Shown: piece after piece, positions 16,899-42,054 of the stretch
How positions within the stretch are numbered: position 1 is the first letter of the stretch
Layout of the letters: each line of letters starts with the position of its first letter
From: a virus
Virus record (IMG/VR): IMGVR_UViG_3300032020_001000
Coordinates: 1 to 64,000 of that record
Length of the DNA: 64,000 bases
Reading direction: 5' to 3' (one strand)
Program-made: the position numbers and the translations under genes
Notes under the pieces: generated by a model
What the model was told of the DNA's origin: nothing
The model's database searches: none
The model's input: the letters and a program-made list of their open reading frames with translations, nothing else

Positions 16899-17067
16899 TG
16901 ATAGCTCAACGAGGTCGCGAAGAGGTGATGGCACAGATGGATCAAGCAAGGCCGGCAGTTCCGACTGCCGGGCCCCGGGCGCCTGTACGCCCGCACGCCG
17001 ACGGAGCGCAGGAGAGGCGGGAATCCTGTGCCGGTCTCGGCAATTGGCCGGAGAAAAATGAGGCTAC
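16899..17067 (+). ncRNA. Orphan copy of the putative guide-RNA scaffold (3' end of the tnpB/cas12f-like gene)
   Basis: Matches 32091-32259 except for 8 substitutions, several of which preserve hairpin pairing. Confidence 0.6.
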
Positions 17068-17235
17068 GGTCTAGTGGGGCGCGCATTCACGGCCAACTAC
17101 AGGCAGGCGGCCCCTGTGCGCTCGTGCCCCTGGGGTGTAGTGGGGCGCGCATTCACGGCCAACTACAGGCGCTCGCTCGCATAGGACGCGTTCTCAACCG
17201 CTGTAGTGGGGCGCGCATTCACGGCCAACTACAGG
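17068..17235 (+). CRISPR. Mini CRISPR array, copy A (three 36-nt repeats, two 30-nt spacers)
   Basis: Repeat GSTSTAGTGGGGCGCGCATTCACGGCCAACTACAGG at 17068, 17134 and 17200; identical to 32260-32427. Confidence 0.88.
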
Positions 17236-17263
17236 GCCAACTACAGGGAGAGGAGACGATGAG

Positions 17264-30910: not shown

Positions 30911-32266
30911 ATGGCATTCCGGCGGGGAAAAGCGAAGGCCGAAGGACGGATAATTGGGATTCGCTTCAAGGTGAGCGACCCGAAGCCGGCCGACCTGGCG
31001 ATGCTGAAGACGCTGGCAGCGCGCTGCCGCGAGTTGCGTTATCACCTCTTTGATTGGGCAGTCGCAAACGATGGTTCCGGGCCAGAGCACCTGCGCGCCA
31101 TGTATTACGAGGCCGCCCGCTTGGCGCCCGATCTGTCGGCAGACATGAGAGGCACGATTGCCGGGGAAATACGCACGGCGATCAAGCAGTATCGCAAAGT
31201 GCAGCGCCAGGACCCGCTGGCGCGCCCCTTCGAGTTCAAGCGCGTCATCATTCCGGTCAAGGTCTCAAGCATCTATGAGTTGGCGCCAGAAGGGGCGAAT
31301 GGTTATTGGCGGCTGCGTGTCGGACTATGGGCGAGGGGCGGCACTGAAGAAACCACGGCCAGTCTCCGTCTAGCCGCGGACACTAATCGCAACGGGGATG
31401 GCTATCAATTGGCGCACTACAATGCTGCGGTGGCCTGGGGACTGGAGGCAGGCTCCTCGCCGATAGGGGACGGTAAGATTGTGCTCCAACGCGGGAAGTG
31501 GCTCTACATTCAGGCCTTATCCTTGGCTCCGGTTATGGCGGTCGAGGGCCTGCGGGTTGCGGGGGTTGATGTGGGGCGCCATCATCTGGCAGTGGTGGCG
31601 ATGCCCGAGAACGGAAAGACGGAGTTCGTGGGGCGTTACAATTGGGTGCGCGACTTGATCGCCGACCGCTGGCGGAAGACTCGTCTCTATCGTGCGGGCC
31701 TGCGGAAGCGCGCCAATGCCGAAAGCGATAGGGCGGCTGACAAGACAAAGACAATCTGTCAGCAGGTGGCGGCTCGCGTCGCGGATGTGCTCGTGCAGTG
31801 GGAGGCCACGCACGTGGCGATGGAAGACCTGACCGGCATGAGGGAGAGACTCGCGGAAAAGTTCGGCGAGGGCACCGAGGGAGCCGTCGTCAATGCGCGC
31901 TTCCCCTACTATAGATTGCAGGCGGCGATTGAGTATGCTTGCGGGAAGGTTGGGATTGCCACCGTCAAGGTGGAGGCCAAATACAGTTCGCAGACGTGTT
32001 GGCGCTGCGGAGAAAGGGGCAAGCGGGATGGGCTAGAGTTTAGATGCGACGAGTGCGGCAAGGAGCATGCTGATGCAAATGCGGCCCGCGTGATAGCTCA
32101 GCGAGGTCGCGAAGAGGTGATGGCACAGATGGATCAAGCAAGGCCAGCGGTTCCGGCTGCTGGACCCCGGGCGCCTGTACGCCCGCACGCCGACGAAGCA
32201 CAGGAGAGGCGGGAATCCTGTGCCGGTCTCGGCAATTGGCCGGAGAAAAATGAGGCTACGGTCTAG
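30911..32266 (+). CDS. tnpB: TnpB/Cas12f-like RNA-guided RuvC nuclease (451 aa)
   Basis: RuvC-I AGVDVG, RuvC-II VAMEDL, YSSQTCWRCG..FRCDECG Zn finger and RuvC-III HADANAARVI; D-E-D triad intact. Confidence 0.9.
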   Translation: MAFRRGKAKAEGRIIGIRFKVSDPKPADLAMLKTLAARCRELRYHLFDWAVANDGSGPEHLRAMYYEAARLAPDLSADMRGTIAGEIRTAIKQYRKVQRQDPLARPFEFKRVIIPVKVSSIYELAPEGANGYWRLRVGLWARGGTEETTASLRLAADTNRNGDGYQLAHYNAAVAWGLEAGSSPIGDGKIVLQRGKWLYIQALSLAPVMAVEGLRVAGVDVGRHHLAVVAMPENGKTEFVGRYNWVRDLIADRWRKTRLYRAGLRKRANAESDRAADKTKTICQQVAARVADVLVQWEATHVAMEDLTGMRERLAEKFGEGTEGAVVNARFPYYRLQAAIEYACGKVGIATVKVEAKYSSQTCWRCGERGKRDGLEFRCDECGKEHADANAARVIAQRGREEVMAQMDQARPAVPAAGPRAPVRPHADEAQERRESCAGLGNWPEKNEATV

Positions 32267-37772: not shown

Positions 37773-38452
37773 GGTGCTGGCCGGAAAATGAAGAACAACT
37801 CGCCGCCCCTATCCTGCCGTGGCTGGAGCAGCAGCACTGGGACGTGTACCAGGAAGTTCAGATCCTAGCCTACGAGAGTGTTGCCGACATCGTGGCAATC
37901 CAGGGGCCCCTCATCTGGGTCATCGAGGTAAAGCGCAGCCTCGGGTTCCGGGTATGCGAGCAGGCGATTCGATGGCAGCAGATAGCCCACCTCGTCTCGG
38001 TGGCGGTGCCGGCCACCGAGCGGGGCGGCCGCGGGCCATTCGTCACCCACATGCTCCATCATATCGGCCTCGGAGTTATCACGGCGCGAGAGCATGGCAG
38101 TCCACACGAGTTGCTGTCGGCGCGTCTGTGTCGGCGCACCGTGCCGGTGCTGACCGCCCGCCTGCGCAAAGCCTGCACCGAGGAGCGCAAGCACTTCGCG
38201 CGGGCCGGCAATGCGGAAGGCTTGCGCTACACGCCTTTTAGCGCCACCTGTCGAGCCGTGCTGGACTATGCGACGAAGCATCCCGGTGCCACCCTCAAGG
38301 AGGTGGTGGAGGGGATTGACCATCACTACCGCAGCGACACGACGGCGCGATCCTGCCTGGCCCAGTGGATTCGGGCTGGCAAGGTGCGCGGAGTAGTGGC
38401 GCGGCACGAGGGCCGGCTAATGCGGGTCTATGTGGCCCAGGAGAACACGTGA
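37769..38452 (+). CDS. PD-(D/E)xK nuclease-like protein
   Basis: VYQEV..VADIVA..VIEVK. Confidence 0.65.
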   Translation: MRCWPENEEQLAAPILPWLEQQHWDVYQEVQILAYESVADIVAIQGPLIWVIEVKRSLGFRVCEQAIRWQQIAHLVSVAVPATERGGRGPFVTHMLHHIGLGVITAREHGSPHELLSARLCRRTVPVLTARLRKACTEERKHFARAGNAEGLRYTPFSATCRAVLDYATKHPGATLKEVVEGIDHHYRSDTTARSCLAQWIRAGKVRGVVARHEGRLMRVYVAQENT

Positions 38453-38654
38453 TCGCTAATGACCAGAGAGTGATGCGTTGCGGCAGCGGCTGGCCAACGG
38501 AAACCGGTAGATGCCTTCTGCGGGAGGGAGACATGTGTCGCAAGTGGCTGAGGATTGGTCGCCGCAGCAGCGATGGCGCGGTCTGCCTGCTGTCTCCAGG
38601 GGAGGTACGGGCGGTGCTGGCCTTCGCCGATGCCTACCGGAAAGGAGCGGACTA

Positions 38655-39137
38655 ATGCTGACCCTGACGCCCCGACAGATGGAGGCGCTGCGTGCTATCC
38701 GCGATCTGACGCGGCGGCGCGGCCCCACCATCCGAGAGCTGGGGAGAGCGCTCGGATTGTTGTCCACATGCACCACCTGGCGGCATGTGGATCGGCTCGT
38801 GGATAAGGGGATGGTGTGCAAAGGGGAGAGGGAGAACCGCGGCATCGAGCTGACGGCAGCAGGGATGGCTGAGCTGAATCCGGCCCCAGCCCCGGCAGTA
38901 GACGGCAACTTGTCGGTAGCAAGTTGCGGCGAGATGACGGCGGTCATGCGGATGCAGCGCTGGGATGGTTGGCGGATCGACCGCCTGGGAGACGTTGCCG
39001 TCAACGGCCCCGGCATCGGGTTTATCCCCGTGTATGCGACCGAGGAAGAGGCGCTGCGCGATTTCCCGGACGGGCCGTTTGCGCGGATGCGCCTGTGCGA
39101 GAGTGATGGCGCGGCAGCAGAGGACTGTGCGGACTGA
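38655..39137 (+). CDS. LexA-type DNA-binding domain protein (no peptidase domain)
   Basis: LTPRQMEAL..PTIRELGRALGL.S..T.WRHVDRLVDKG. Confidence 0.75.
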   Translation: MLTLTPRQMEALRAIRDLTRRRGPTIRELGRALGLLSTCTTWRHVDRLVDKGMVCKGERENRGIELTAAGMAELNPAPAPAVDGNLSVASCGEMTAVMRMQRWDGWRIDRLGDVAVNGPGIGFIPVYATEEEALRDFPDGPFARMRLCESDGAAAEDCAD

Positions 39138-39184
39138 GGGGCGGGGCATTCTCGCCCTAGAAAGTGTTCCTGAGGGAGGGAGAC

Positions 39185-39862
39185 ATGCCGAAAAGAAAGG
39201 CAGCAAAAGGCGAGGTGGATGCGCGGGCATGGGCCTTACCGCAGAACTTCGTGCTCCACCGCAACCCGCGCAAGACATTGCGGGTGCGGATTATCGGCAA
39301 AGGGCCGCTCCTGGAGCAGAACCCGGCGCGAATGCGGGATGCGCATATCAAAACGAAAGAGCAGACGGGGCAGACCAAGAAGCGCCAGGCTTGGGATGCT
39401 GAGGCCGAATGCAAGGCCCATGTCCACCGACTGATGGATGGACGGCCGGGCGTACCCTGCATTGCGCTCAAGAAGGCGATGGCCGCGACTGTTAGCGGGA
39501 AGGGCCAAGAGTGGTATGGGCGCCGAAAGGAACTCTACAGCGCCTTCTGGATTCGGGGCGAAGCCAATCAGGAGCAGGGCGGCATGGAATTGTTGCCCAT
39601 TATCTCGCCCAACGGTGACTACGTGGTGGATCGTTCCTGGGTGCGCAACAGTGGCATCGGCCGCCCCATTGACGTGCGAGCCAGGCCGCGATGGGACAAG
39701 TGGGCGCTCGACGTAGAGATCGAGTTCAAGACTAGCGCCGGACTGACGGAGCAGACCCTGCTCGATATGCTCGATGAGGCTGGAGACCGGGGGATCGTCT
39801 CCCGCCGGCAGGAGAACAGCGGAGAGAACTATGGCACCTTCGAGGTGGCGGTGGAGGCATAA
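39185..39862 (+). CDS. Stand-alone phage RAMP/Cas7-like protein (candidate guide-RNA-binding effector)
   Basis: N-terminal strand VRIIGKGPLL, PCIALKKAM helix, RARPRWDKWALDVEIEF and C-terminal AG..GI..RR...G.NYGTFEV glycine-loop-like end. Confidence 0.65.
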   Translation: MPKRKAAKGEVDARAWALPQNFVLHRNPRKTLRVRIIGKGPLLEQNPARMRDAHIKTKEQTGQTKKRQAWDAEAECKAHVHRLMDGRPGVPCIALKKAMAATVSGKGQEWYGRRKELYSAFWIRGEANQEQGGMELLPIISPNGDYVVDRSWVRNSGIGRPIDVRARPRWDKWALDVEIEFKTSAGLTEQTLLDMLDEAGDRGIVSRRQENSGENYGTFEVAVEA

Positions 39863-39867
39863 ACAGC

Positions 39868-40392
39868 ATGGTCAGGGAGAGCGGGGCGCAACTCGAAATC
39901 GGGGTTCGGCCAGGCTTCCATCTCAGCCAGGAGCAGGCCGAGCGATATGGGGCGCGGCTCTACGAACTGATCCGGACGAAGCGCGGCATTCCCATCTCCG
40001 CCCGTGAGATCGTCGAAGCTGCCCGTTCATCGAGATCGGCGCTCCATGACTGGTTCACTTGGGACGACGGCGAGGCCGCCGAGCGTTGGCGCGAGGAGCA
40101 GGCCCGCAACTTGGCGCGGGCCATCCAGATCAACATCGTGGTCGAAGGCGGTGGCCCGCCTGTACCCGTGCGCGCCTTTGTCTATGTTGAGGACCGCGAT
40201 GCCGAGGGCGAGCAGGCAGGCTATGTGCCACTGGCGGAGGCGCTCGGCGATGAGGCCCGGTATGCCTATATCCTGGAGCGCGCATACCGGGAATATCGGG
40301 CACTTGCAATGAAACATCGGCACCTCAAGGAACTCAGCCGACTCTTCCCGGCGCGGGAGATGGCGCGTTGGGATAAGCGGTTTCGAGGATAA
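39868..40392 (+). CDS. Phage protein between the RAMP-like gene and the array
   Basis: EIVEAAR..SALHDWFTWDDGEAAERWREEQARNL..VRAFV; starts 5 nt after the RAMP-like stop. Confidence 0.7.
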   Translation: MVRESGAQLEIGVRPGFHLSQEQAERYGARLYELIRTKRGIPISAREIVEAARSSRSALHDWFTWDDGEAAERWREEQARNLARAIQINIVVEGGGPPVPVRAFVYVEDRDAEGEQAGYVPLAEALGDEARYAYILERAYREYRALAMKHRHLKELSRLFPAREMARWDKRFRG

Positions 40393-40394
40393 GA

Positions 40395-40668
40395 TGCAGG
40401 AGAGCATGAGGCCAGGTGGAGCTGGGCCGGGCGCAGTCCGGCATGGCACGGTAGGGTTCCAAATTGCACGAGAGTATGCAGTTAGGCTGGGCGAGGCCAG
40501 GACTGGCACAGCCCAGTGCGGCAAGGTTCTGAATTGCAGGAGAGCATAGGGAGCGGCGTGGCCGGGCGGGGACTGATACGGCATGGATCAGTGAGCTAAG
40601 GTTTCCGAATTCCAGGAGAGCATGAGGCTTGGCTTGGCACGGCGAGGCAAGGCGAGGTCGAGTAAGGA
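40395..40668 (+). ncRNA. Array of four ~70-nt units made of NN-GGY pentamers (candidate guide-RNA array)
   Basis: Head TGCAGGAGAGCAT (and variants) at 40395, 40465, 40535 and 40611; then 10, 10, 11 and 9 in-register pentamers; 33 of 40 triplets are RGY. Confidence 0.8.
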
Positions 40669-40675
40669 TTGCCGC

Positions 40676-41167
40676 ATGAGAATCATGGGTATTGACCTCG
40701 GCAATCCGGGCGCGCTGGCCATCCTGAGCGATGATCAGCCCGGCAAGCCGCGGGTCGTGGCAACCGCCTCCTGGGGGCACACGACCGGCCTGCACCTCCA
40801 GGAGATGATCCTTGCCCTGGGACGCGAGCACGGCGTGGAGCTGGTGGCGACCGAGCGACCAGGGAGCTGGGGCAGGCGATCGGTGGGAATGTCGCAGCGG
40901 GGCAAGCAGGAGGTGGTGCGGGCGGCCTGCCAGGCGCTGCGAGTACACCTTGTGGATTACCAACCACGGACGATCCGGGCGGCGCTCGGAGTCAGGGCTC
41001 AGGCCGCGGAGGGGAAACGGCAGGTCGGGCGCTGTGTTAAACTGCTGGTCAAGATTGACAGCGACAATGAGCATGTGCTCGACGCCTGCGCTCTGGCCCT
41101 GGTAGCGCTGAACCGGGAGGGGTCGCGGCGGAGGATGCTCGCCGCAAAGGTACGGAGCCAATTATGA
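40676..41167 (+). CDS. RuvC-like Holliday junction resolvase
   Basis: MRIMGIDLG, VATERP and NEHVLDACALA. Confidence 0.75.
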   Translation: MRIMGIDLGNPGALAILSDDQPGKPRVVATASWGHTTGLHLQEMILALGREHGVELVATERPGSWGRRSVGMSQRGKQEVVRAACQALRVHLVDYQPRTIRAALGVRAQAAEGKRQVGRCVKLLVKIDSDNEHVLDACALALVALNREGSRRRMLAAKVRSQL

Positions 41168-42054
41168 TCGATCCATCCTCGATGCGACTGTGGCTGCCGC
41201 ACGTTGAGCGGCTGGGGATTCCAAGTCCGCGCACGATTCTCGTGGTGGAGCCGGAGCCCGGATTCCTGGATCGCCTTCTCTTGGCGGCAATCGATGCAGT
41301 GGAGGGCGGCGGCGAACCTCTGGATGCCCGGGCCGCAGAGTTCGTGGGCGACGTTACGAAGGCTGTGGATGGCGTGGGCTATCCAGCATTCCTACGCACG
41401 GACCTCTGCAGCGGGAAGCATCAGTGGAGGGACACCTGCTTCGTCGCGGCGCCAGGGCACGTCTACTCGCATGTGCTGGCCCTGATTGAGTTCGGGATGA
41501 ACGCTGATATGCTGGGGCTGCAGCATACAGCGATCGCCGCGCGCCAGTACCTCTACCTTGACGCCCCATTCGCCGCCTACCGCGGGTTACCGATTGCGGC
41601 GGAGCGCCGATATTTCGTGCGCGAGGGCCGGGTGCTGTGTCACCATCCATACTGGGAACGCGAGGCAGTGGCGGCAGGCTATCCGTGGTGCGCCGAATGG
41701 GAACGGCACCTGGAGCGTCTCAACCGGGAGGAGGACGACGAGGTTGCCACGCTCACCGGATTCGCGGCGGCAGTAGGGGGAGCGCTTGGCGGCTTCTGGA
41801 GCATCGACTTCGCGCGCGATGCGGGGGGCAAGTGGTGGTTGATCGATATGGCGGTGGGCGGAGAGTCCTGGCATCCCAGAGGCCCATGTCCAGAGGTTAC
41901 AGTATGCGCCATATGCAGCGGCGTCATCGACGAGGAATATCCATCGAGGCACGCAGGATGCGCGGCCGCTGGCCGACGACCGAAGGCCGCTGCTGCTGAT
42001 GATGCTGATGATGATGCTGATGATGATGCTGATGATACGGAGCCGCGCAAGTGA
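41164..42054 (+). CDS. ATP-grasp-like protein
   Basis: GYPAFLRTDLCSGKH, ERRYFV and WSIDFA..WWLIDMA; acidic GCTGATGAT repeat tail. Confidence 0.55.
   Translation: MIDPSSMRLWLPHVERLGIPSPRTILVVEPEPGFLDRLLLAAIDAVEGGGEPLDARAAEFVGDVTKAVDGVGYPAFLRTDLCSGKHQWRDTCFVAAPGHVYSHVLALIEFGMNADMLGLQHTAIAARQYLYLDAPFAAYRGLPIAAERRYFVREGRVLCHHPYWEREAVAAGYPWCAEWERHLERLNREEDDEVATLTGFAAAVGGALGGFWSIDFARDAGGKWWLIDMAVGGESWHPRGPCPEVTVCAICSGVIDEEYPSRHAGCAAAGRRPKAAAADDADDDADDDADDTEPRK

What the first reader, a model, noticed from the sequence alone, without database searches (positions are those of the whole stretch)
39185..40668. Candidate non-CRISPR RNA-guided system: RAMP/Cas7-like gene, partner gene and array of NN-GGY pentamer units
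Seen: the 280 bp between ORF 39868-40392 and the resolvase is four tandem units starting at 40395, 40465, 40535 and 40611. Each has a conserved head (TGCAGGAGAGCAT, TGCACGAGAGTAT, TGCAGGAGAGCAT, TCCAGGAGAGCAT), then a strict 5-nt period of two variable bases plus a fixed triplet. Of 40 triplets, 26 are GGY, 7 AGY, 5 GGA and 2 other. Units 1-3 end in TCCAAAT, TCTGAAT and TTCCGAAT. The variable dinucleotides differ per unit: U1 GA CA GG TG CG GC CC AT AC AG; U2 GC TA TG GA CA CT AC CC GC AA; U3 AG GC GT CG GG CT AC AT TC GA AA; U4 GA TT TT AC GA AA GA CG AA. Two genes upstream is a 225-aa protein with RAMP-like features and no other cas genes nearby. Known: Cas7 RAMP proteins polymerise on guide RNA with a fixed nucleotide period. 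Inference: each unit is a guide in which GGY is the per-subunit handle and the NN bases spell a discontinuous target. From memory this resembles recently reported viral RAMP plus GGY/NN-repeat (VIPR-type) loci, which I cannot verify here.
Basis: partly seen in the sequence, partly recalled or inferred. Interest (0 to 1): 0.95.

Follow-up and report, generated by a model that had tools for sequence, protein, structure and literature searches.

The report
Phage VIPR guide-RNA system, divergent member
A provirus from a sediment sample carries a small protein, a helper gene and four pentamer-repeat guide RNAs of the recently described VIPR kind, which phages use to silence rival DNA; it is a real but already known type of system, in a divergent form.

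Summary
Window 40395-40675 has four units: a 13-nt conserved block followed by 9-11 pentamers of two variable bases plus GGY (26 GGY, 7 AGY, 5 GGA, 2 other of 40). Nothing else in the 83,861-bp provirus record reaches 6 of 10 in-phase NNGGY. Of 2000 dinucleotide shuffles, none reaches the observed 8.

VIPR systems are in print as 2026 bioRxiv preprints. A profile of the 225-aa protein's family matches the solved SUSP1 Vipr protein (PDB 36pp, E 2.3e-15; hhalign 98.6%).

The partner gene belongs to a family that sits next to a vipr homolog and an NNGGY array in 15 of 16 bacterial loci. All 5 phage homolog loci fetched also carry arrays.

This is a new member of a known kind. It is deep-branching, with its nearest relative at 38% identity. 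It has Ser where SUSP1 has the essential Asp177. Its guides are separated by 20-24-nt conserved blocks, with no own promoter, terminator or ribozyme detected.

No target was found and no RNA data exist. The same stretch was noted before in this scan.

The parts
39185..39862 (+). vipr: 225-aa Vipr-family (RAMP-related) protein, P0001
   Evidence: phrog_4652 E 1.8e-11, nearly full length. 298 homologs at E<=1e-3 among 1.84 billion representatives, nearest 38% identical. The family profile A1 hits PDB 36pp_D 'SUSP1 Vipr protein' at E 2.3e-15 and the SUSP1 genome at E 7.7e-18. hhalign gives 98.6% probability over 171 columns. R167 and R208 align with SUSP1 R138 and R179. A GGAGG Shine-Dalgarno sequence precedes the ATG.
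39868..40392 (+). vap-like accessory gene (174 aa, P0151), signature PLHxxFxWDDxxAAxxxRxxQA
   Evidence: phrog_15946 E 5.7e-14. Homologous to Gordonia phage UmaThurman gp41 (E 3e-16) and Mycobacterium phage Saal gp52 (E 3e-8), both next to vipr homologs. 15 of 16 genomic loci found through this protein alone hold vipr plus an array. Not related to SUSP1 vap1 (BLASTP E 3.7; hhalign probability 0.1%). No Pfam or PDB match.
40395..40464 (+). vrRNA unit 1: 13-nt conserved block, 10 NN-GGY pentamers (40408-40457), then TCCAAAT
40465..40534 (+). vrRNA unit 2: conserved block, 10 pentamers (40478-40527), then TCTGAAT
40535..40610 (+). vrRNA unit 3: conserved block, 11 pentamers (40548-40602; two are off-consensus, CTGAT and GAGCT), then TTCCGAAT
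40611..40675 (+). vrRNA unit 4: conserved block, 9 pentamers (40624-40668), then a degenerate separator that runs into the ruvC-like start codon at 40676. The last pentamer AAGGA lies 7 nt before that ATG.

Best explanation
This is a VIPR (Viral Interference Programmable Repeat) system carried by a complete 84-kb provirus. It consists of vipr (39185-39862), a vap-type accessory gene (39868-40392) and a four-guide vrRNA array (40395-40675), all on the + strand.

By analogy with the characterised SUSP1 system, the array is transcribed with the surrounding genes. Each 9-11-pentamer tract is coated by one Vipr protomer per pentamer. Neighbouring protomers hold the GGY bases, through the conserved thumb Arg167 and G-loop Arg208. 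The 9-11 exposed NN dinucleotides pair with double-stranded DNA in which every third base is skipped. That reads about 18-22 specified bases over a 26-32-bp site and silences transcription of a competing phage, satellite or prophage.

Shown here: the homology, the array, the gene trio and the viral context. Inferred from the papers: RNA production, filament assembly, the 1-nt-skip rule and silencing. My own inference: the guides are released from a polycistronic transcript at the 20-24-nt conserved separators, by host nucleases trimming what Vipr does not cover.
For: 1. Array: four units of 9-11 NN-GGY pentamers, unique in the 83,861-bp record and beyond 2000 of 2000 shuffles. The repeat number lies in the published 9-16 range.
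2. Protein: the family profile hits the solved SUSP1 Vipr protein (E 2.3e-15; E 7.7e-18 on the SUSP1 genome; hhalign 98.6%). The equivalents of SUSP1 R138 and R179 are kept in P0001 and in 93 of 93 and 92 of 93 family members.
3. Homolog loci: 5 of 5 phage loci fetched (Saal, SUSP1, UmaThurman, prophiBWHA-1, Moogle) have in-phase NNGGY arrays next to the homolog on its strand and none on the other strand.
4. Partner gene: of 16 loci in diverse bacteria found through the partner protein alone, 15 have a vipr homolog just upstream (E<=1e-49) and an NNGGY array on the same strand; 0 of 16 have one on the opposite strand.
5. Context: an IMG/VR provirus rated 100% complete by CheckV, with integrase, terminase and portal. 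The paper reports 56% of VIPR loci as proviral.
6. No self-target under any skip rule: best 15 of 20, equal to shuffled guides. The paper reports the same for its systems.
Against: 1. P0001 alone finds nothing in the PDB, so the link to SUSP1 Vipr runs through the family profile.
2. The residue aligned with SUSP1 D177, whose alanine substitution abolished silencing, is Ser206. H17 is Gln45 and W178 is Arg207. Only 4 of 93 family members have Ser there.
3. Only 26 of 40 triplets are strict GGY.
4. No RNA data exist: the one holder run listed is a DNA sediment metagenome. No promoter-like or terminator-like site was found around the array (none of either in 39138-41300).
5. No convincing target was found.
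6. The fold was not computed.
7. The published long 3' tail with a pseudoknot has no visible counterpart. Only a 20-24-nt separator is conserved.
Confidence: 0.88

Rival explanations
1. A decaying or inactive VIPR remnant. The genes and array descend from a VIPR system, but the protein no longer grips the GGY handle (Ser206 at the essential Asp position) and the repeats are drifting, so nothing is silenced.
For: Ser206 aligns with SUSP1 D177, and D177A abolishes silencing. 14 of 40 triplets are not GGY, and unit 3 has two off-consensus pentamers. No target was found.
Against: Both ORFs are intact, with a good ribosome-binding site. The nearest relative P0002 shares Gln, Ser and Arg at the same three positions despite only 38% identity. 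That argues for a maintained variant pocket rather than decay. Position 4 of the pentamer is G in 38 of 40, and the heads are nearly identical. SUSP1 and other active-type arrays also carry off-consensus pentamers.
Confidence: 0.08
2. The periodic tract works at the DNA level, for example as an array of binding sites for the neighbouring RuvC-like resolvase, the ParB-like protein or another DNA-binding protein. It would not be a guide RNA.
For: It lies directly before a RuvC-like gene. No promoter or terminator of its own was found.
Against: The arrays travel with vipr and the vap family, not with RuvC. They sit on the vipr strand in 15 of 15 bacterial and 5 of 5 phage loci, upstream or downstream of vipr, and never on the opposite strand. 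A strand-blind DNA site would not behave so. In SUSP1 such tracts are sequenced small RNAs that co-purify with Vipr.
Confidence: 0.02
3. The tract is translated. Each head carries AGGAG, and three of four heads carry an ATG. Small Gly/Ala/Arg-rich peptides, or an N-terminal extension of the RuvC-like protein (ORF 40622-41167), would then be the product.
For: AGGAGAGCATG is present in units 1 and 4. ORF 40394-40549 (51 aa) and the in-frame ORF 40622-41167 exist.
Against: A 5-nt period cannot conserve a peptide. Unit 3 has ATA instead of ATG. RuvC-type proteins begin at the MGIDLG-type motif, which here follows the ATG at 40676. Homologous arrays lie in varied positions and phases.
Confidence: 0.02

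Closest known systems
Type II VIPR of Escherichia phage SUSP1 (Vipr, vap1, four vrRNAs); bioRxiv 10.64898/2026.04.26.720920 and 10.64898/2026.04.26.720927; PDB 36pp
   Same: A small Vipr protein of about 200 aa is followed by a small accessory gene and a downstream array of guides made of NN-GGY pentamers (9-16 per guide), on one strand in a phage genome. The thumb Arg and G-loop Arg are conserved. No self-targets.
   Different: The Vipr proteins are only about 20% identical. The accessory genes are unrelated. SUSP1 guides are about 100 nt with a long conserved 3' tail and pseudoknot and AT-rich leaders. Here the units are 65-76 nt with a 20-24-nt separator. SUSP1 has an extra guide upstream of vipr; here the upstream gap is 47 nt. 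D177, H17 and W178 are Ser, Gln and Arg here.
Unannotated vipr/vap/array loci in Mycobacterium phages (Cheoctovirus, e.g. Saal gp51-gp52) and Gordonia phage UmaThurman (gp39-gp41), and in 15 bacterial genome loci
   Same: Same Vipr family (27 Mycobacterium phage records at 29% identity). Same accessory-gene family. NNGGY arrays on the same strand. Temperate-phage context near repressor and integrase genes.
   Different: Most of these arrays are long continuous runs with 1-nt phase slips at GGCAGGC junctions, not discrete 70-nt units. Gene order varies: array-vipr-vap, vipr-array-vap or vipr-vap-array. All of them but L030, L038 and L039 keep H/E-or-D/W at the three pocket positions where this protein has Q/S/R.
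Class 1 CRISPR-Cas backbone (Cas7 RAMP filament on crRNA)
   Same: Per the papers: a RAMP protomer binds a fixed number of guide nucleotides, a thumb flips bases periodically, and guides are arrayed between conserved separators.
   Different: There is no cas1/cas2, Cas5/6/8 or nuclease in the locus. The period is 5 nt with 3 bases sequestered, not 6 with 1 flipped. The target is read with gaps. No sequence-level match to any Cas7 in the PDB. The separators are 20-24 nt and show no strong hairpin.

Membership tests
VIPR system | Vipr protein homologous to characterised Vipr | tested here: met
   Profile A1 (93 homologs of P0001) against PDB sequences: 36pp_D 'SUSP1 Vipr protein' at E 2.3e-15, with the next hit at E 1.5. 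SUSP1 genome E 7.7e-18. hhalign 98.6%. P0001 alone gives no PDB hit.
VIPR system | RAMP fold: RRM core, glycine-rich loop and thumb | not testable with these tools
Indirect evidence: the G-loop motif AG..G....R...G..G.F.V aligns with that of SUSP1. The Atlas holds a model (pTM 0.73) whose neighbours are unnamed viral proteins at TM 0.73-0.79.
VIPR system | GGY-binding residues of SUSP1 Vipr (H17, R138, D177, W178, R179) | tested here: inconclusive
   R138 aligns with R167 and R179 with R208, both kept. H17 aligns with Q45, D177 with S206 and W178 with R207, all changed. Across the family, the D177 position is E or D in 80 of 93 and S in 4 of 93.
VIPR system | vrRNA of tandem YNNGG repeats (paper's search threshold at least 4 units; 9-16 per vrRNA) | tested here: met
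   Four tracts of 10, 10, 11 and 9 pentamers; 26 of 40 are strict GGY and 38 of 40 have G at position 4.
VIPR system | Conserved 3' tail after the repeat tract | tested here: inconclusive
   A conserved 20-24-nt block separates the tracts. Only a 3-4-bp hairpin is possible and it fails in unit 4. No Rfam family, hammerhead included, matches 38000-42000 at E<=1. 5' versus 3' assignment needs RNA ends.
VIPR system | Adjacent vap accessory gene in a minimal locus without CRISPR array or cas operon | tested here: met
   The partner family co-occurs with vipr and an array in 15 of 16 loci. Which of the published vap1-6 it is could not be told, because figures and supplements are not held. It is not SUSP1 vap1.
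VIPR system | Viral or proviral context | tested here: met
   IMG/VR provirus record of 83,861 bp, rated 100% complete by CheckV; integrase, terminase and portal present.
VIPR system | vrRNAs expressed and bound by Vipr | not testable with these tools
   Only one DNA run (a sediment metagenome) is listed as holding the stretch.
VIPR system | Natural targets under the 1-nt-skip rule, with none in the own genome | tested here: inconclusive
   Own record: best 15 of 20, 15 of 20, 15 of 22 and 13 of 18, equal to shuffled guides. Exact patterns: U1 and U2 gave 0 hits in viral contigs. U4 gave 7 hits, all in contigs of 36-44% GC. U1 gave 1 hit in metagenome contigs, in a repetitive stretch. U3 was not scanned.
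CRISPR-Cas (Class 1) | cas operon (Cas7 with Cas5/6/8, cas1-cas2) and repeat-spacer array | tested here: not met
   Flanking genes are LexA-like, RuvC-like and an R2K ATP-grasp. The units have an internal 5-nt period, not unstructured spacers.

The most novel reading that the evidence does not exclude
This may be a deep-branching VIPR lineage with its own rules. It is represented only by this protein and one 38%-identical relative among 1.84 billion representatives. A Gln45/Ser206/Arg207 pocket, replacing His/Asp-or-Glu/Trp, would accept A as well as G at the first handle base, making an RGY handle. That would explain why 7 of 40 triplets are AGY, the highest share among the 19 loci compared. 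The four guides would be excised from a polycistronic phage mRNA at CRISPR-like 20-24-nt separators, without a ribozyme or their own promoter or terminator. This would be a compact natural multiplex guide array and a relaxed handle code.
Probability: 0.25. Interest if true: 0.5.

Novelty: new member of a known kind. Interest (0 to 1): 0.35.

Why it matters
VIPR was described only in 2026 and is proposed as the ancestor of the CRISPR RAMP proteins, so each divergent natural system helps define what is essential to the code.

This one keeps the two arginines but replaces the acidic residue that SUSP1 needs. It tolerates AGY and GGA handles, and it packs four guides into 281 bp with short separators.

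If it is active, it would show that the handle pocket is evolvable, and it would offer a compact multiplex array format.

The survey made here adds three things:
- One accessory-gene family (motif PLHxxFxWDDxxAA) is tightly linked to vipr across many bacterial phyla.
- Some deposited annotations overlap the arrays: UmaThurman gp40 lies almost wholly inside one, and the start of Saal gp51 overlaps one.
- The same provirus also carries a Cas12f/TnpB-like gene, so one phage may field two RNA-guided systems.

Tried and rejected
Structure and fold
- I used sequence profiles against PDB sequences, hhalign and the Atlas look-up instead. The Atlas showed only unnamed viral neighbours and no Cas7 family.
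- P0001 alone against the PDB gave only chance hits at E of about 0.8.

Closest relatives
- The word-index search found only the protein itself among 363 candidates.
- The search for related loci with P0001 and P0002 in viral contigs, and with P0001 in genome contigs, confirmed no relative.
- Alignments A1 and A2 were too diverse for that tool.
- The contig of P0002 could not be fetched (look-up of encoding contigs closed). Whether the nearest relative has the same separator architecture is therefore unknown.

Other arrays with the same head
- The pattern of head plus two GGY units gave 7 hits in viral contigs. None is followed by an array (2-3 of 12 in-phase pentamers), and 6 of the 7 are one repeated sequence.

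Targets
- The own record has none at 80% or more under 0-, 1- or 2-nt skips. The 3-nt skip finds only the array itself.
- Exact 1-nt-skip patterns gave U1: 0 and U2: 0 in viral contigs.
- U4 gave 7 hits in viral contigs, all in contigs of 36-44% GC against 65.5% for this provirus. Four of them are one gene family in which the skipped base falls on the wobble position. I take this as a chance-level number for 18 specified, AT-rich bases; that is my rough estimate, since I do not know the collection's size.
- U1 in metagenome contigs gave 1 hit, in a repetitive stretch and out of wobble phase in the longest frame.
- U3 was not scanned. Searches that tolerate mismatches across large collections were not possible with these tools.

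Host
- No tRNA gene in the window.
- The terminase has less than 30% identity to any of 702 phage records.
- The portal's Atlas neighbours are mixed Actinomycetota and Bacillota.
- The host remains unknown.

Expression
- No RNA holder is listed; the only run listed is a DNA sediment metagenome.

Other checks
- Rfam: nothing at E<=1 in 38000-42000.
- Promoter and terminator scan: none at the array.
- Folding of the array gave z -2.72, mostly pairing between guides and no conserved separator hairpin.
- Partner gene function: no Pfam, PDB or NCBI-style name.
- VIPR type (I-VII): not assignable. The figures are not held and supplements are closed, so data S4 and figs S16-S19 of 10.64898/2026.04.26.720920 may already contain this lineage, this vap family or this array layout.
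- The AGY comparison is crude. Its windows include flanking non-array pentamers, and it rests on one locus with the Ser pocket.
Full report
**Observation**

The 283 bases between the stop of ORF 39868-40392 and the ATG at 40676 hold four head-to-tail units, starting at 40395, 40465, 40535 and 40611. Each begins with a 13-nt block (TGCAGGAGAGCAT twice, TGCACGAGAGTAT, TCCAGGAGAGCAT) and continues with 10, 10, 11 and 9 pentamers.

Over the 40 pentamers, positions 1 and 2 use all four bases. Position 3 is G 33 / A 7, position 4 is G 38 of 40, and position 5 is C 22 / T 13 / A 5.

In the whole 83,861-bp record, on both strands, every window of ten in-phase pentamers with six or more NNGGY lies inside this tract (maximum 8). 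The best elsewhere is 5. In 2000 dinucleotide-preserving shuffles of the tract the maximum was 6, reached twice. Tandem Repeats Finder does not report the array.

**What is already in print**

- bioRxiv 10.64898/2026.04.26.720920. I read the abstract, Results, Discussion, methods sections 18, 20, 26 and 27, and the legends found by term search. It describes VIPR systems:
  - a roughly 20-kDa Vipr protein related to the CRISPR RAMPs;
  - an accessory vap gene;
  - vrRNAs of 9-16 YNNGG repeats followed by a conserved tail;
  - a target read through the NN dinucleotides with one base skipped between them;
  - transcriptional silencing of competing phages, satellites and prophages;
  - seven types with variable array layouts.
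- 10.64898/2026.04.26.720927 (abstract and sections 5 and 6 read) gives the structural basis. One protomer binds per repeat. G1 is read by H17 and D177. G2 is held by R138 and W178. Y3 is held by R179. D177A and R138A abolish silencing.
- I saw only the abstract of 10.64898/2026.10.15.759431.
- I saw passages of 10.64898/2026.10.21.760802, which reports 99 clusters of 5-nt-period arrays, 21 of them with non-canonical handles.

**The protein**

ORF 39185-39862 (225 aa) has no Pfam family. It matches phrog_4652, of unknown function, over nearly its whole length (E 1.8e-11).

It is isolated. The word-index search of 5.8 billion clusters found only the protein itself. An exhaustive HMMER search of 1.84 billion representatives found 298 proteins at E<=1e-3, with only one above 30 bits of real similarity (P0002, 38% identity).

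A profile of 93 of these homologs (A1) gave the following:
- It hits one PDB sequence, 36pp chain D, 'SUSP1 Vipr protein', at E 2.3e-15 over profile positions 23-208 and residues 2-189. The next hit is at E 1.5.
- It finds the vipr gene in the SUSP1 genome (E 7.7e-18) and in Mycobacterium phage Saal (E 5e-68).
- hhalign gives 98.6% probability over 171 columns.
- The single sequence finds nothing in the PDB, so the chain of homology runs through the family.

In alignments SUSP1 R138 and R179 correspond to R167 and R208. These positions are R in 93 of 93 and 92 of 93 family members. SUSP1 H17, D177 and W178 correspond to Q45, S206 and R207. The D177 position is E or D in 80 of 93 members and S in 4. 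P0002 shares Q, S and R.

In a FastTree tree of 111 sequences, P0001 and P0002 pair with support 0.996 on a long branch outside the small SUSP1 group (midpoint root, deeper placement weakly supported).

The Atlas holds a model (pTM 0.73) whose neighbours are unnamed viral proteins.

**The partner gene**

ORF 39868-40392 (174 aa) matches phrog_15946 (E 5.7e-14). It has no Pfam or PDB relative.

It is homologous to UmaThurman gp41 (E 3e-16) and Saal gp52 (E 3e-8), which both flank vipr homologs. It is not related to SUSP1 vap1 or to prophiBWHA-1 gp42.

I used its alignment (A5, motif PLHxxFxWDDxxAAxxxRxxQA) to fetch loci from one genome per species. This returned 16 loci, among them Sphingopyxis, Clostridiales, Eggerthellaceae, Eiseniibacteriota, Selenomonadales, Chloroflexi, Microbacterium, Nocardia, Acidobacteria and Peribacteria.
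- In 15 of 16 loci a vipr homolog (E<=1e-49) lies just upstream on the same strand.
- The same 15 loci have an NNGGY array (at least 6 of 10 in phase) on that strand.
- None of the 16 has one on the opposite strand.
- L028 has the partner gene alone.

The partner is therefore a genuine vap-type accessory gene. I could not tell which of the published vap1-6 it is, because the figures and supplements are not available.

**Homolog loci carry arrays**

All five phage loci that I fetched have in-phase NNGGY arrays beside the homolog, on its strand only: Saal, SUSP1, UmaThurman, prophiBWHA-1 and Moogle. The family is present in 105 phage records, among them Escherichia 45, Mycobacterium 28, Gordonia 7, Salmonella 7 and Shigella 7.

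**Context**

- The window is the first 64 kb of an IMG/VR provirus record of 83,861 bp, rated 100% complete, with 65.5% GC. It comes from a sediment metagenome.
- It encodes an integrase, SNF2 helicase, SbcC-like ATPase, methylases, terminase and portal.
- Directly upstream of vipr is a protein with a LexA-type DNA-binding domain. Downstream are a RuvC-like gene and an R2K ATP-grasp gene.
- All of these are on the + strand, with no promoter-like site and no terminator-like site near the array.
- The host is unknown.

**Anatomy of the array**

Aligning the units with their flanks shows a conserved separator of 20-24 nt, RGGTTYC..AAT-TSCASGAGAGYAT. It is also present in part before unit 1, where it overlaps the vap stop codon. 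It is present in degenerate form after unit 4, where it runs into the next gene's start codon. Each guide is thus flanked on both sides, as in a CRISPR array.

The separator offers at most a 3-4-bp hairpin, which fails in unit 4. No ribozyme or other Rfam family matches. The long tail and pseudoknot of SUSP1 vrRNAs have no counterpart here.

Most arrays in the vap-linked loci are long continuous runs with GGCAGGC phase slips. At least one, L032, has short conserved separators.

**Targets**

- No site in the provirus itself reaches 80% NN match under 0-, 1- or 2-nt skips. The best scores equal those of shuffled guides, which agrees with the paper's finding of no self-targeting.
- Exact 1-nt-skip patterns gave no hit for units 1 and 2 in the viral collection.
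- Unit 4 gave seven hits, all in low-GC contigs.
- Unit 1 gave one hit, in a repetitive stretch of a metagenome contig.
- I regard all of these as chance-level. Unit 3 was not scanned, and mismatch-tolerant searches were not possible. The natural targets are unknown.

**Most likely mechanism**

Shown here: the gene trio, the array, the homology and the proviral setting.

Taken from the papers by homology: the array is transcribed, one Vipr protomer binds each pentamer, adjacent protomers sequester GGY, and the NN dinucleotides pair with DNA in which every third base is skipped. The complex then blocks transcription of a competitor.

My own inference: the guides are cut from a polycistronic transcript at the separators, and the Q45/S206/R207 pocket may accept A at the first handle base. 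AGY makes up 7 of 40 triplets here. By a crude common measure its share is 0.12, against 0.00-0.08 in 18 other loci.

**Verdict**

It is a new, deep-branching member of a known kind rather than a new kind.

Open points are the fold, expression, processing, targets, the activity of the Ser-pocket protein, and the type assignment. The paper's supplements, which I could not see, may settle the last of these.

Noticed in passing
window 30911-32266 (and 16899-17247, per earlier notes): The same provirus encodes a 451-aa protein with a Cas12f1-like TNB domain (Pfam PF07282, E 3.4e-16). Earlier notes of this scan describe a mini repeat-spacer array at its 3' end and a second copy of that array. One phage may therefore carry two unrelated RNA-guided systems.
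   Followed up: partly
L015 3089-3434 (Gordonia phage UmaThurman gp40); L001 2571-2838 (upstream of and overlapping the start of Saal gp51): NNGGY arrays overlap deposited gene annotations in phage records. UmaThurman gp40 lies almost wholly inside the array, and the annotated start of Saal gp51 overlaps the array's last few bases. No held paper has both 'vrRNA' and 'mycobacteriophage'.
   Followed up: partly
L001 2590-2830; L026, L030, L032, L039 arrays: Many arrays in this vap-linked clade are continuous, with recurrent GGCAGGC junctions that shift the pentamer phase by one base. This fits the 'staggered, overlapping vrRNA' arrays named in the paper's legend for fig. S18.
   Followed up: no
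L037 1641-2162, 2848-3340, 3369-3939 (Nocardia sp. NPDC049149): This chromosome locus has three NNGGY tracts totalling about 1.6 kb around one vipr gene, by far the largest array seen here.
   Followed up: no
L028 (Ructibacterium MAG): This is the only one of 16 loci with the vap-family gene but no vipr homolog and no array within the 4 kb upstream. It may be a solo accessory gene or a decayed locus.
   Followed up: no
window 40398-40402 and equivalents; 40664-40668: Three of the four heads contain AGGAG (CGAGA in unit 2), followed by ATG in three of four units. The last pentamer, AAGGA, lies 7 nt before the ATG of the RuvC-like gene, so it may double as that gene's ribosome-binding site.
   Followed up: no
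window 38511-39137 and 41164-42054: The VIPR locus sits between a gene with a LexA-type DNA-binding domain (E 2.6e-9) and, after the RuvC-like gene, an R2K-clade ATP-grasp gene (E 2.2e-9). In Saal, UmaThurman and prophiBWHA-1 the locus also lies near immunity repressor genes.
   Followed up: no
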